Assembly: GCA_001818705.1 (NCBI GenBank)
Contig: MHJM01000010.1
Coordinates: 1 to 25,426, forward strand
Length of the DNA: 25,426 nucleotides
Reading direction: 5' to 3'
From: Candidatus Harrisonbacteria bacterium RIFCSPLOWO2_02_FULL_45_10c
GTDB lineage: Bacteria; Patescibacteriota; Minisyncoccia; UBA6257; 02-FULL-45-10c
Of the stretch, positions 469-11,930 are shown piece after piece (the stretch's first letter is position 1; the number at the start of each line of letters is the position of its first letter). The notes beneath the pieces are model-generated. The model worked only from the letters and a program-made list of their open reading frames with translations. It was not told the origin of the DNA and did not search any database. The translations under genes and the position numbers were made by a program.

Positions 469-539
469 GCCCCCATAGCTCAATGGTAGAGCAGCTGCCT
501 TTTAAGCAGTTGATCTTGGTTCGATTCCAAGTGGAGGCA
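469..539 (+). tRNA. tRNA-Lys (anticodon TTT), CCA not encoded
   Basis: Cloverleaf: acceptor GCCCCCA/TGGAGGC (one C-A mismatch), D stem GCTC/GAGC, anticodon stem GCTGC/GCAGT with loop CTTTTAA, T arm CTTGG-TTCGATT-CCAAG. Confidence 0.95.
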
Positions 540-10095: not shown

Positions 10096-10668
10096 TTATT
10101 TTGATTTTTCAACCCGTTCCGTATATTGGCCGGTTTCGGTGTTAACCCGGACAACATCGCCGGTATTGACGAAGAGGGGAACGGCAACTTGGGCGCCGGT
10201 TTCCAAGATGGCCATTTTACTGCCGCCCTGGGCGGTGTTGCCGCGTTCTCCCGGGGGAGCTTCGGTAACTTTCAGGTCGGCTTTAATCGGCCCTTTAATG
10301 CTGAGTATTTGCTCATCTAATTTCATAGCGGTGACGTCGCTATTCGGTTTTAAGAACTTGCTTTGCGGGCCGATTTTTTCTTCCGGGATTTTGAACCGAT
10401 TTTTAGGATTGCCTTTTTCACAGAACCAAAACTCGCCCCGATGATTGTAGAGATAGGTGATCGGTATCTTATCTACTTCAATGGATTCCAACGCTTCGTT
10501 TTGGTGGAAGTTCCGTTCCAAGATCTGGCCGGTAAAGAGATTCCGGATCTTGGTTTTCGCCACCGGCTTGCGCTGCTGCATGCGGAGGAACTCATATTCA
10601 ACAACTTCATAAGGAGTGCCTTCAAATTTGAACATCGTCCCGATTTTCAGTTCGTTGTAACTTAACAT
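10096..10668 (-). CDS. efp: Translation elongation factor P
   Basis: Ungapped match to the EF-P pattern (PYEVVEYEF..., RGNTAQGGSK, LETGAQVAVPLFVNTGD, NTETGQYTERV). Confidence 0.95.
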   Translation of the reverse strand: MLSYNELKIGTMFKFEGTPYEVVEYEFLRMQQRKPVAKTKIRNLFTGQILERNFHQNEALESIEVDKIPITYLYNHRGEFWFCEKGNPKNRFKIPEEKIGPQSKFLKPNSDVTAMKLDEQILSIKGPIKADLKVTEAPPGERGNTAQGGSKMAILETGAQVAVPLFVNTGDVVRVNTETGQYTERVEKSK

Positions 10669-10672
10669 AGTA

Positions 10673-10941
10673 GAACCTATCCCAATAATAGCTCCCGAAA
10701 GCGATACTAGCCAATTTTATTCAGAACCAGGAACGAGGAGAAAATCGTAGCTTGAGCTACCTTTCCGACGAGTGACGCCGTTATGAATAAAATTGATTGT
10801 ATCCCGAAGGGTTGTTATTAAAATGAATTATCTCGTTGTCATTCCTCCTAGGAGTATCCAAAGATACACCCTCGTCGTCATTTCTTGATATAATTCATTT
10901 TAACTAACAACGCGTTTAGGGATTATTATTGGGATAGGTTC
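10673..10941. repeat. Three-armed palindromic element C upstream of efp
   Basis: Perfect 18-bp terminal inverted repeat 10673-10690/10924-10941. It encloses two long hairpins (12-bp stem 10712-10723/10784-10795; 14-bp stem 10818-10831/10890-10903) whose cores are related in opposite orientation. Confidence 0.85.
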
Positions 10942-10946
10942 AAAAT

Positions 10947-10976
10947 ATTCTATAACGCAACCCAGTATTTTTGCAA
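10947..10976 (-). promoter_or_regulatory. Putative efp promoter
   Basis: Minus strand TTGCAA-18 nt-TAGAAT. The predicted start site falls at the edge of element C (about 10941). Confidence 0.5.
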
Positions 10977-11186
10977 CATTCGGGCTGGCGGTGGGATCAT
11001 TCAGAAATTACCAGAGAGTATCCTCCTGACGGCACCGGCGTTCGCCGATTCCAGCGATCGGCGCCGCCTACACCTCGTCCCGATTCTCCTAATGGAACCA
11101 AGCAAATCGGGATTCCGGAGTTGCCGCACGGAGGATACTCTCTGGTTATAAATGGAGGCGATGTTGCAAAAATACTGGGTTGCGTT
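10954..11186 (+). repeat. Element family D, copy D1 (contains nested B2)
   Basis: Perfect 26-bp inverted repeat 10954-10979/11161-11186, enclosing TCGGGCTGGCGGTGGGA (10980-10996) and AATGGAGGCG (11151-11160). Both motifs are identical in D2. Confidence 0.88.
11010..11146 (-). repeat. Structured element family B, copy B2
   Basis: Perfect 17-bp closing stem 11010-11026/11130-11146. Minus strand carries GTGCGGCAA, GCTTGGT, GAGGTGTAG and CCGGTGCC. Confidence 0.92.
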
Positions 11187-11194
11187 GTTATATT
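11164..11194 (+). promoter_or_regulatory. Putative promoter of the nucleotidyltransferase gene
   Basis: TTGCAA (11164-11169) and TATATT (11189-11194), a long 19-nt spacer; ATG 7 nt downstream. Confidence 0.4.
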
Positions 11195-11201
11195 GAATGA
11201 T

Positions 11202-11930
11202 ATGGCTATAGTCAAAAAAGCAATAATTTTAGCGGGAGGAAAAGGCACTCGGCTTTATCCGGTGACTTTGGAAACTCCAAAGCCGCTTTTAACCGTGAAT
11301 AAAAAACCGATTATCAATTACCTGATTGACATGTTCCGCCGGCACGGCGTTACGGAAATAGCCGTTACCGTCCGGGAAAGCGATTTTGATGATTTTTCCT
11401 GGTGGCTTCGCCGCTGGCAGAATAATCTGGTCAATCTGATAGTGGAAAAAGAGCCGATGGGGACGTTCGGGCTTTGGGCGCACCAGCTCCATACCTGGAC
11501 CGGCAACGAACCGTTTTTCCTGACTAATGGTGATGAGTTAAAAGATATTAATCTATTCGAGATGACAGCGCATCATGAAAAAATAGGCGGCTTAGCGACT
11601 ATTGCGGCAGTGGAAGTTCCGAATCCGAATGAATATGGAGTAATTGTTTTTGACGGCCAGCGCATTAAAGAATTTTTGGAAAAACCGGAGCATCCGCCGA
11701 CTAAATTCATTTCTTCCGGCTTATATATTTTAGAGCCGGGAATCCGGGAAATGATTGCCGATAAAGTTAAATCTGGAGAAAAATTTTTGATGATAGAAAA
11801 AGATTTATTTCCGAAATTGGCAGCGGAAAAGAAATTGGCCGCCTATCGGTCAAAAGGGAAGTGGTTTGATTGCGGCAATCTCGAGCGTTGGGAAAAAGCG
11901 ATTAAGGAGTGGGGTCCGGAAACAAAATAA
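11202..11930 (+). CDS. Nucleotidyltransferase (NTP_transferase family, sugar-1-phosphate nucleotidylyltransferase-like)
   Basis: KAIILAGGKGTRLYP, PKPLL, EKEPMGT, NGD, FLEKP and WFDCG motifs. Start reassigned to the ATG at 11202. Confidence 0.9.
   Translation: MAIVKKAIILAGGKGTRLYPVTLETPKPLLTVNKKPIINYLIDMFRRHGVTEIAVTVRESDFDDFSWWLRRWQNNLVNLIVEKEPMGTFGLWAHQLHTWTGNEPFFLTNGDELKDINLFEMTAHHEKIGGLATIAAVEVPNPNEYGVIVFDGQRIKEFLEKPEHPPTKFISSGLYILEPGIREMIADKVKSGEKFLMIEKDLFPKLAAEKKLAAYRSKGKWFDCGNLERWEKAIKEWGPETK

What the first reader, a model, noticed from the sequence alone, without database searches (positions are those of the whole stretch)
10673..10941. A 269-nt three-armed structure fills the whole predicted efp 5' leader
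Seen: an 18-bp perfect terminal inverted repeat. One end coincides with the predicted efp transcription start (5 nt after TAGAAT) and the other ends 4 nt before the ATG. Inside are two arms with AT-rich 12-bp and 14-bp stems. Their cores are homologous but inverted: CCAGGAACGAGGAG..GTAGC-TTGA-GCTAC..GACGAGTGACGCCG versus CAAGAAATGACGAC..GTATC-TTTG-GATAC..GAGGAATGACAACG. Inference: either two copies of a further element inserted head-to-head in a leader hairpin, or a regulatory/processed leader. Folding would bring the 5' end next to the start codon and so mimic a leaderless mRNA.
Basis: partly seen in the sequence, partly recalled or inferred. Interest (0 to 1): 0.65.

Follow-up and report, generated by a model that had tools for sequence, protein, structure and literature searches.

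The report
Folded repeat element splitting efp's promoter
The 269-base folded structure before efp is not a dedicated efp control region. It is one copy of a widespread, strongly structure-conserved repeat element of these tiny groundwater bacteria, and it repeatedly sits exactly between a promoter's -10 box and the first base of the gene.

Summary
The structure is real: a perfect 18-bp closing repeat, with z about -9 on either strand. It is not an efp-specific leader.

- **Copies:** it is one of 7 full copies in this 546-kb CPR genome. It occurs in 20 of 22 genomes of the same family (Ca. Harrisonbacteria-type MAGs).
- **Fold:** 41 aligned copies form a perfect four-way junction. It has a closing helix P1, two long arms with GA-rich or CU-rich internal loops, and a 3-bp central hairpin. 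72 of 90 pairs covary.
- **efp elsewhere:** none of 20 relatives has it before efp. Of 80 metagenomic efp loci, one has a truncated copy there. In these relatives efp looks leaderless, with a -10 box 6-9 nt before the ATG.
- **Position here:** the element lies exactly between that -10 box (TAGAAT) and the ATG. The same sandwich recurs at unrelated genes: -10 box, 2-5 nt, element, 0-15 nt, then an ATG or a tRNA 5' end. One copy splits the coupled rplB-rpsS junction.

My reading is a MITE/REPIN-like structured repeat that occupies transcription-start windows. I infer it is tolerated because its closing helix re-joins the flanks in the RNA. Processing of the RNA and an outward promoter are both unproven. 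I found no target duplication, no transposase partner and no Rfam match. First readers of this scan noted look-alike 269-271-bp elements in two other genomes.

The parts
10673..10941 (-). One copy of the about 270-bp four-way-junction repeat element. Strand given as efp sense.
   Evidence: Family copies.
10673..10702 (-). P1 closing helix, 3' strand in efp sense. It contains the 18-bp terminal repeat 10673-10690, a TATTAT hexamer (10685-10690) and AGGT.
   Evidence: Helices 1-2 of A1: 22 of 26 pairs have changes on both sides, about 98% of cells paired.
10912..10941 (-). P1 closing helix, 5' strand in efp sense. The predicted transcript from the TAGAAT promoter would start at about its first bases.
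10811..10911 (-). P2, the 5' arm in efp sense: a long hairpin whose internal loops are purine-rich (GACGACGA facing GAGGAGGA). These can be read as C-G pairs alternating with tandem G.A pairs.
   Evidence: Helices 3-5 of A1, 26 of 31 pairs covary. Loop reading is my inference from the alignment.
10804..10810 (-). P3, a central 2-3-bp mini hairpin (CC-loop-GG) at the symmetry centre. Nearly invariant stem, variable loop.
10703..10803 (-). P4, the 3' arm in efp sense: a long hairpin with pyrimidine-rich loops (CUCGUCGG, UUUCCUCCUCG) complementary to those of P2.
   Evidence: Helices 7-11 of A1, 23 of 31 pairs covary.
10947..10976 (-). Old efp promoter: TTGCAA (10971-10976), 18 nt, TAGAAT (10947-10952). 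Its -35 box and spacer lie inside the left arm of the neighbouring 26-bp inverted repeat (10954-10979).
   Evidence: The same TTGAAA/TTGCAA-N17-TAnnnT-N7-ATG layout occurs at efp in relatives.
10685..10714 (-). Candidate outward promoter inside the element: TTGGCT (10709-10714), 18 nt, TATTAT (10685-10690). It would give an efp mRNA with a leader of about 10 nt containing AGGU.
   Evidence: 9 of 12 consensus matches. Conserved in the alignment but also constrained by pairing.
10096..10668 (-). efp (elongation factor P, 190 aa).
10954..11186 (+). Neighbouring repeat element closed by a perfect 26-bp inverted repeat. Each arm carries an outward TTGCAA -35 box.
11202..11930 (+). Divergent nucleotidyltransferase gene, with TATATT (11189-11194) 7 nt before its ATG.

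Best explanation
**What it is.** The stretch is one copy of a family of about 270-bp, non-coding, self-complementary repeat elements. The family is specific to this CPR family (MAG titles: Candidatus Harrisonbacteria / Patescibacteria). Either strand folds into a perfect four-way junction: a 26-30-bp closing helix, two inverted homologous long arms and a tiny central hairpin.

**How it got here.** In this lineage a copy landed in the 7-9-nt window between the -10 box and the ATG of an efp gene that is leaderless in relatives.

**How it works (inferred).** Transcription from the old promoter (TTGCAA-18-TAGAAT) should start at about the element's first base. The whole element then becomes a 5' leader whose closing helix pairs the RNA 5' end with the bases just before the AUG.

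**Why it is tolerated (inferred).** The closing helix re-juxtaposes what the insertion separated. This would apply to promoter/5' end and start codon, to an upstream stop and a coupled start, and to a leader and a tRNA 5' end. Most likely the long perfect helix is cut by RNase III, which the genome encodes. The cut would leave a short-leader or near-leaderless efp mRNA.

**Possible second route.** A promoter-like TTGGCT-18-TATTAT plus AGGU at the efp-proximal end may add or replace this with a transcript carrying a leader of about 10 nt.

**Spread.** How the element spreads is unknown. I found no target duplication and no transposase partner.

**Shown:** family membership, structure and covariation, lineage-specific presence at efp, and the positional rule.
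**Inferred:** the transcription start, the processing, the promoter activity and mobility itself.
For: **Multi-copy**
- 7 full and 4 partial copies in the own genome, at 68-86% identity.
- Present in 20 of 22 genomes of the family against 1 of 18 genomes from other families of the order.

**Structure**
- 41 copies give 96.4% of cells paired.
- 72 of 90 pairs have changes on both sides. 0 of 500 shuffles reach this, and slid controls give 22-28 such pairs.

**Insertion at efp**
- 20 of 20 relatives lack the element. They show TTGAAA/TTGCAA-N17-TAnnnT about 7 nt before the ATG.
- Across 67 metagenomic efp loci, TAnnnT hexamers pile up 6-9 nt before the ATG: 53 hits at those four distances, against 0-10 at any other distance from 0 to 29 nt.

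**Positional rule**
- Near-consensus -10 hexamers point into the element 2-5 nt from its end: 14 on one side and 5 on the other. Background is about 0.5 per position.
- 15-17 protein genes start 0-15 nt beyond the opposite end.
- 4 tRNA genes start 4-5 nt beyond that same end.
- The pattern is seen again in 5 of 14 further copies.

**Other observations**
- Downstream genes are unrelated in function.
- One copy separates the rplB stop from the rpsS ATG. In 20 of 21 relatives these are 0-14 nt apart, without the element.
- Wobble bias consistent with RNA-level selection on the transcribed strand: in 18 gene-abutting copies GU 39 against AC 18 (p 0.0075, and in all three helices). In the other copies the counts are about equal.
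- An RNase III gene is present.
- A promoter-like site lies inside the element.
Against: - No RNA data could be found, so the start site, leader folding and cleavage are unobserved.
- Overall GU (84) barely exceeds AC (63). That pattern is more like constraint on both strands or at the DNA level.
- About 20 copies that do not abut a gene start keep the structure equally well. Tolerance at gene starts therefore cannot be the only force.
- The junction-flanking base pairs are nearly invariant in sequence. Mere folding does not explain this.
- No target-site duplication was seen.
- No IS630, IS110 or rve transposase in five copy-rich genomes. The Y1/RAYT-like gene does not track the element.
- No pair of copies is more than 93% identical, so recent movement is not shown.
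- -10-like hexamers are common in AT-rich flanks. The looser motif TAnnnT alone was not clearly enriched.
Confidence: 0.6

Rival explanations
1. Portable promoter/RBS cassette. The element's main effect is to drive the abutting gene from its own outward promoter. The -35 box TTGGCT lies in the base of P4 and the -10 box TATTAT lies in the terminal repeat, with AGGU acting as a Shine-Dalgarno sequence. The fold and the old upstream promoter would be irrelevant to expression.
For: - The site scores as well as the old promoter.
- Within P1, the TATTAT block and the terminal ATAGGTTC block are the conserved parts and the middle varies.
- Genes and tRNAs abut the end with the better -35 box about 20 times, against 3-4 for the other end.
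- In L083 the start codon of a UvrD-like gene lies inside the terminal repeat, 4 nt after TATTGT (my reading).
- Correia elements create promoters at their ends (PMC2649163).
Against: - The third base of the -35 box is not conserved and covaries with its pairing partner.
- The motif is equally intact in copies with no adjacent gene.
- The copies at rpsS, L018 and L073 abut the end that lacks a -35 box.
- It explains neither the -10 boxes pointing into the far end nor the strand-specific wobble bias across all helices.
Confidence: 0.25
2. Invertible DNA switch. The closing inverted repeat mediates inversion of the asymmetric interior, moving the single good -35 box from one flanking gene to the other.
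For: - At three shared loci the element is inverted relative to orthologous flanks: L004 against L062, L029 against L026/L060, and L064 against L074.
- L029 and L060 are mutual best matches.
- Many copies lie between divergent genes.
Against: - No recombinase is associated with the element.
- No strand-changing joints appear in the four DNA runs, though contigs hide rare variants.
- The elaborate conserved arms and junction are not needed for an inverton.
- Independent insertions in either orientation explain the same data.
Confidence: 0.07
3. Host-domesticated structured RNA gene. An RNA of about 270 nt is released from 5' leaders and has a trans-acting or protein-binding role, for example its GGA/GGAGG-rich arm titrating a protein or the ribosome.
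For: - Covariation is very strong and the junction sequence is invariant.
- The element persists in 0.5-0.9-Mb streamlined genomes across at least 12 genera.
- Copies at shared loci differ by 7-25 compensated pairs.
Against: - Copy number varies from 1 to 23 hits per genome and locations differ between genomes.
- GU is about equal to AC overall.
- Truncated and decayed copies exist.
- No Rfam family matches.
Confidence: 0.06
4. Dedicated efp riboregulator.
For: It fills the leader and would mask the region before the AUG.
Against: - It is absent before efp in 20 of 20 relatives. It is absent in intact form from all 80 metagenomic efp loci searched, one of which has a truncated copy.
- The same element precedes unrelated genes and tRNAs.
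Confidence: 0.02

Closest known systems
Correia repeat-enclosed elements (CREE/NEMIS) of Neisseria
   Same: - Small non-coding multi-copy element closed by terminal inverted repeats.
- Often lies next to gene starts and is co-transcribed.
- Can form promoters at its ends.
- Its RNA hairpin is bound or cut by RNase III (abstract of PMC2649163).
   Different: - CREE is 100-155 bp and folds as a simple hairpin. It carries an IHF site and a TA duplication (the last from my own knowledge).
- This element is about 270 bp and forms a four-way junction.
- It shows no duplication.
- Its terminal repeats covary rather than keep one sequence.
- It sits specifically between the -10 box and +1.
REPINs / REP-BIME elements mobilised by RAYT (Y1 HUH) transposases
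   Same: - Two inverted hairpin-forming units make a larger hairpin.
- Long-lived, diverged populations of copies within a genome.
- No target duplication (own knowledge).
   Different: - The GTAG tetranucleotide is not conserved.
- The only RAYT-like gene (C22:4934-5614) is flanked by a different small hairpin and is found in 7 of 23 genomes, against 20 of 22 for the element.
- The units here are about 100 bp each and carry an extra closing helix.
bcr1-type repeats of the Bacillus cereus group (recalled from memory, not checked here)
   Same: Repeats of about 155 bp that are transcribed with neighbouring genes. Their predicted RNA structure is supported by compensatory changes.
   Different: - They have a TTTAT target duplication and a simpler fold.
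- No link to the -10/+1 window has been reported.
Rickettsia palindromic elements (RPE), as reviewed in PMC10969869
   Same: Palindromic selfish repeats tolerated at sensitive places in reduced genomes.
   Different: RPEs are tolerated by in-frame translation inside genes. This family is non-coding and sits at transcript starts.
rRNA processing stems and 23S intervening sequences removed by RNase III (textbook knowledge)
   Same: A long-range perfect helix joins the two ends of an inserted or enclosed RNA and is the site where it is cut out without ligation.
   Different: Here the downstream product would be an mRNA or tRNA. Cleavage is only inferred.

Membership tests
MITE (non-autonomous DNA transposon) | Short non-coding multi-copy element with terminal inverted repeats | tested here: met
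   About 270 bp with an 18-19-bp terminal repeat. 7 full copies here and 58 full copies collected in all. No ORF of 40 aa or more lies within 10673-10941.
MITE (non-autonomous DNA transposon) | Target-site duplication flanking each copy | tested here: not met
   Flanks of 41 copies show only A at -1 and T at +1 (about 73% each). These pair with each other and extend P1. Positions -2 and +2 are at background frequencies, so there is no direct repeat.
MITE (non-autonomous DNA transposon) | Autonomous partner with matching ends, or a transposase in the genome | tested here: not met
   Terminal repeats pair only at about 269 bp in the own genome. No DDE_3, IS110 or rve hits in five copy-rich genomes. 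Y1_Tnp does not correlate with the element. No viral contig carries the core pattern.
MITE (non-autonomous DNA transposon) | Presence/absence differences at orthologous sites | tested here: met
   The efp and rplB-rpsS sites are occupied only in this genome among 20-21 relatives. The nearest relatives are other genera, so the empty site cannot be aligned base by base.
REPIN / RAYT system | Conserved GTAG next to the palindrome, and a RAYT gene flanked by the repeats | tested here: not met
   Apical stems vary (GTAGC, GTGGC, GTATC, GCAGC). The flanks of the RAYT-like gene are not family copies.
Cis-regulatory leader / riboswitch class | Conserved before orthologous genes, or before a functionally coherent gene set | tested here: not met
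   (efp). M23 peptidase, LigT, phosphoglucomutase, TrmD, UvrD, DoxX, RpiB, a PD-(D/E)XK nuclease, an ABC ATPase, S19 and a CDP-alcohol transferase. tRNAs.
Inverton (invertible promoter) | Both orientations present within one population, and an invertase | tested here: inconclusive
   Opposite orientations are seen only between genera. Contigs of four runs show no strand-changing joint, but contigs drop rare variants. No invertase search was done.
Any Rfam 15 family, including self-cleaving ribozymes and group I/II introns | Covariance-model match | tested here: not met
   Nothing at gathering score in the window. Only two chance-level hits at E of 2.8 or more in 10600-11250. Nothing in seven other copies' loci except tRNAs and unrelated weak hits.
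RNase III substrate | Perfect duplex of about 20 bp or more, with the enzyme present | tested here: met
   P1 is 26 predicted pairs, about 98% paired. An RNase III gene lies at C18:11033-11428. Cleavage itself cannot be tested with these tools.

The most novel reading that the evidence does not exclude
The family is a 'topologically transparent' mobile element that integrates specifically into the melted -10/+1 window of promoters. After transcription its closing helix undoes the insertion at the RNA level without splicing. This happens either through a cut at the base of the helix, or simply by bringing the 5' end (or an upstream stop codon) next to the start codon. Leaderless initiation, translational coupling (rplB-rpsS) and tRNA maturation then go on as before.
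Probability: 0.2. Interest if true: 0.85.

Novelty: new variant of a known kind. Interest (0 to 1): 0.6.

Why it matters
- **Transcription starts in CPR bacteria.** These are among the smallest free-standing genomes, yet this family keeps several to about 20 copies of a 270-bp element whose base pairs are maintained by compensatory change. Knowing why would show how these uncultured bacteria start transcription and translation. Here many genes look leaderless.
- **Selfish or host-used.** It would also show whether structured repeats in CPR genomes are selfish DNA, host tools or both.
- **A new insertion mode.** The position rule (-10 box, element, first base of the gene) is unusually sharp. 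If it reflects targeting, that would be a new insertion mode. If it reflects tolerance, it is a natural experiment on how a ribosome finds an AUG at the foot of a large RNA structure.
- **Annotation.** Such elements can be mistaken for riboswitch-like leaders of whichever gene they precede.

Tried and rejected
- **tRNA intron.** The C26 copy follows the first 47 nt of a tRNA-Ile(GAU). However, the 3' part is truncated and an intact tRNA-Ile lies about 60 nt downstream. Splicing is therefore not required.
- **Known RNA families and ribozymes.** A four-way junction with two looped arms recalls the hairpin and twister-sister ribozymes, but there is no Rfam match.
- **TA duplication of IS630/mariner type.** Not supported by the flank statistics.
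- **RAYT as partner.** A 226-aa Y1 protein with an HUH motif exists, but it is neither flanked by the element nor co-distributed with it.
- **Other transposases.** None in five genomes. No phage or viral copy.
- **Regulon idea.** The downstream genes are unrelated.
- **Transcript evidence.** No RNA run was listed. The DNA runs only showed that the arm at 10684-10815 is several-fold to more than 20-fold deeper than the flanks. That means many copies exist in the community. They also showed joints from relatives whose efp-nucleotidyltransferase spacer differs.
- **A near-identical strain with an empty site.** The best metagenomic EF-P is 82% identical.
- **Looser motif.** TAnnnT alone did not separate the two ends. 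Only the near-consensus hexamers did.
- **Genome-wide leaderless estimate.** Using the first ATG of each ORF is crude. It shows only a modest TAnnnT peak 6-8 nt upstream and a weak GGAG peak.

Full report
**1.

Window 10673-10941 is closed by an exact 18-bp inverted repeat and contains two further inverted repeats of 16 and 17 nt. Either strand folds far better than shuffled sequence. As RNA the values are -98.4 kcal/mol (z -9.3) in efp sense and -94.3 kcal/mol (z -8.7) on the other strand. As DNA, z is -9.6.

efp (EF-P domains) runs 10668 to 10096 on the minus strand, and its ATG is 4 nt from the element. On the far side, 5 nt away, lies TAGAAT (10947-10952), preceded at 18 nt by TTGCAA. The two arms are inverted homologues: the element matches its own reverse complement at 61%.

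**2. It is a repeat family, not a one-off**

- The own assembly is 546 kb in 35 contigs and 85% complete. It has 7 full copies at 68-86% identity plus 4 fragments.
- 20 of 22 genomes of the same family carry it, with 1 to 23 hits each. Only 1 of 18 genomes from other families of the order does.
- A core pattern scanned over one genome per species returned mostly MAGs titled Candidatus Harrisonbacteria, Paceibacterota or Patescibacteria, plus scattered chance hits elsewhere. No viral contig matched.
- In four groundwater and soil DNA runs, the arm at 10684-10815 is several-fold to more than 20-fold deeper than the flanking genes. The community therefore holds very many copies.
- Rfam has nothing for it.
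- Two first-reader notes of this scan describe 269-271-bp elements closed by inverted repeats in other genomes that share a few words with this one. I did not test them.

**3. Structure**

I aligned 41 full copies from about 20 genomes in efp sense (A1). RNAalifold gives a perfect four-way junction with four helices:
- **P1:** 21 + 5 pairs, the outer 18 being the terminal repeat.
- **P2:** a long arm.
- **P3:** a 2-3-bp hairpin at the centre.
- **P4:** a second long arm.

No unpaired bases lie at the junction. 96.4% of cells are standard pairs, and 72 of 90 pairs show changes on both sides. 0 of 500 shuffles reach this. Sliding the partners by 1-3 columns drops pairing to 33-45% and double changes to 22-28 pairs.

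The terminal repeat itself covaries. Some copies differ from the consensus at six positions of the repeat, all compensated. That is unlike the ends of ordinary transposons, which keep one sequence.

The 'loops' of P2 are purine-rich, GACGACGA facing GAGGAGGA. By my reading these can form C-G pairs alternating with tandem G.A pairs. Those of P4 are the pyrimidine complement and include UUUCCUCCUCG. Because the halves are inverted homologues, RNA from either strand would have a purine-rich 5' arm and a pyrimidine-rich 3' arm.

The base pairs next to the junction (ACGCGTTG, GCAACCC, GGGATAC, GTATCGCG) are nearly invariant. Folding alone does not explain this.

**4. It is a lineage-specific insertion into a leaderless-type efp promoter**

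efp was found in 20 relatives of the family, and none has the element in the 700 nt upstream. Most show TTGAAA or TTGCAA, about 17 nt, TAnnnT, about 7 nt, then ATG. Across 67 metagenomic efp loci, TAnnnT hexamers pile up 6-9 nt before the start codon: 53 hits at those four distances.

One locus (L147, EF-P 82% identical) has a truncated copy lacking the 5' strand of P1. There a TATAAT box lies 6 nt before the ATG, downstream of the copy.

In the window the layout is: -35 box, 18 nt, TAGAAT, ATTTT, element, TACT, ATG. Without the element, 9 nt would separate the -10 box from the ATG. The divergent nucleotidyltransferase gene keeps the symmetrical arrangement, TATATT then 7 nt then ATG at 11202. 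Both -35 boxes lie in the arms of the neighbouring 26-bp inverted repeat.

**5. The same position recurs elsewhere**

I oriented 44 copies by the family profile, where the two orientations score about 280 and about 96 bits.

- **-10 boxes pointing inward.** Hexamers within one mismatch of TATAAT that point into the element pile up 2-5 nt from its ends. There are 14 at the end that is 5' in efp sense and 5 at the other end. Background is about 0.5 per position further out. Seven are perfect TATAAT.
- **Protein genes.** Beyond the opposite end, an ATG opening a long ORF lies within 0-15 nt in 15-17 copies. The count is 3-4 for the other polarity.
- **tRNA genes.** Four tRNA genes (Gly-GCC, Glu, Gln, Gly-UCC) begin 4-5 nt beyond that same end in the same polarity.
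- **Replication.** Fourteen further copies from other MAGs repeat the pattern in at least five cases.
- **Gene functions.** The genes concerned are unrelated: M23 peptidase, LigT, phosphoglucomutase, TrmD, UvrD, DoxX, RpiB, a PD-(D/E)XK nuclease, an ABC ATPase and a CDP-alcohol transferase.
- **rplB-rpsS.** In this genome a copy also lies between rplB and rpsS, 8 nt before the S19 ATG. In 20 of 21 relatives the rplB stop is 0-14 nt from that ATG, with no Shine-Dalgarno sequence visible by eye and no element.

The element therefore sits where the continuity of its flanks matters most.

**6. Which strand matters**

Over all copies, G-U pairs (84) barely exceed A-C (63). That is closer to a two-strand or DNA-level constraint than to a typical RNA.

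In the 18 copies with a gene or tRNA abutting the 3' end, G-U exceeds A-C 39 to 18. The split is 17:7 in P1, 11:6 in P2 and 11:5 in P4. 12 copies against 3 show the bias (pooled p 0.0075, sign test 0.035). The other copies give 36:36 and 9:9.

This modest bias suggests that where the element is a leader, the whole fold is under selection as RNA. The copies are related, so the p-values are optimistic.

**7. Mobility**

- I see no target duplication. A at -1 and T at +1 simply extend P1.
- The terminal repeats in the own genome pair only at about 269 bp.
- Five copy-rich genomes lack IS630-, IS110- and rve-type transposases.
- A 226-aa Y1/HUH (RAYT-like) gene at C22:4934-5614 is flanked by a different small hairpin. 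It occurs in 7 of 23 genomes, so it is not the obvious partner.
- Copies within one genome tend to resemble each other (up to 93%). Others are closest to copies in other genera.
- Five sets of copies share orthologous flanks across genera. In three sets the element is inverted relative to the flanks. L029 and L060 are mutual best matches.
- Copies at shared loci differ by 7-25 compensated pairs.
- Fragments and a truncated copy show that decay happens.

**8. How it most likely works**

Shown: the family, the fold, the insertion at efp and the position rule. Inferred: the rest.

The old promoter should start RNA at about the element's first bases, 7 nt after TAGAAT. The leader then closes on itself and the AUG emerges 4 nt from the foot of a helix of about 26 bp. 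There is no Shine-Dalgarno sequence between the helix and the AUG.

A helix of that length is a standard RNase III substrate, and the genome has the enzyme. A cut there would give a short-leader mRNA. The same logic serves the tRNAs, where RNase P would trim the rest, and the rpsS copy.

Alternatively or additionally, TTGGCT-18-TATTAT inside the element could start a transcript with a leader of about 10 nt, AGGUUCUACU. This matches the conservation pattern of P1 and the polarity bias. It does not explain the inward-pointing -10 boxes, the wobble bias or the three copies used from the other end.

I put about 0.6 on the combined reading: a structured repeat inserted at the start window, transcribed as a leader, and tolerated through its closing helix. 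I put about 0.25 on the promoter-cassette reading as the main effect.

**9. Comparison and novelty**

In behaviour it is closest to Correia elements of Neisseria. These have promoters at their ends, and their RNA hairpin is bound or cut by RNase III (PMC2649163). In architecture it is closest to REPINs, two inverted hairpin units.

It fails two defining MITE tests (duplication, partner) and the REPIN tests (GTAG, RAYT association). A search of the held papers for miniature inverted-repeat elements together with Candidate Phyla Radiation found only one unrelated paper.

New here are four things:
- the four-way-junction design;
- covarying termini;
- persistence in very small genomes;
- the sharp placement between the -10 box and +1.

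I class it as a new variant of a known kind.

Noticed in passing
G000:C26:5118-5440 (L017:419-740, minus strand): A copy of the element follows the first 47 nt of a tRNA-Ile(GAU), at the boundary between the variable loop and the T stem. After the element come a 14-nt T-loop fragment and a run of T. An intact tRNA-Ile and a tRNA-Val lie just downstream. This copy's terminal pairs are GACCCC/GGGGTC instead of GAACC/GGTTC.
   Followed up: partly
G000:C22:4934-5614 (minus strand): A 226-aa Y1/HUH (RAYT- or IS200-like) protein gene, bracketed on both sides by the same 22-nt sequence containing the hairpin GAGATC-G-GATCTC. Similar genes of about 230 aa occur in 5-6 other genomes of the family.
   Followed up: partly
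window 10954-11186 and 11189-11204: The neighbouring element's perfect 26-bp inverted repeat carries TTGCAA in each arm, facing outward. The boxes serve TAGAAT (efp side) and TATATT, which lies 7 nt before the nucleotidyltransferase ATG at 11202. The inner part (about 11010-11146) has relatives at several other places in the genome.
   Followed up: partly
L147:880-1203: In the metagenomic locus with the most similar EF-P (82%), a copy lacks the 5' strand of P1, carries an extra nested hairpin in one arm and lies next to an antisense tRNA-like stretch. efp there has its own TATAAT 6 nt before the ATG.
   Followed up: partly
L083, right end of the copy found: The terminal repeat variant GAAATGGATTT appears to supply the ATG of a UvrD-like gene (MDFLNPQQREA...), 4 nt after the TATTGT hexamer of the repeat.
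   Followed up: no
L225-L245 (rplB-rpsS junctions of relatives): Across the family, rpsS has no visible Shine-Dalgarno sequence and starts 0-14 nt after the rplB stop. This suggests termination-reinitiation coupling.
   Followed up: no
It misses the tRNA that Rfam finds at window 469-539 and the tRNAs on C26.
   Followed up: no
G021:C5:2097-2367; G005:C4:18820-19104; G016:C7:284-575: Variants of about 270-290 bp share the closing helix and one arm with this family, but the other arm does not match. The arm core alone (query 46-113) also hits many further places.
   Followed up: no
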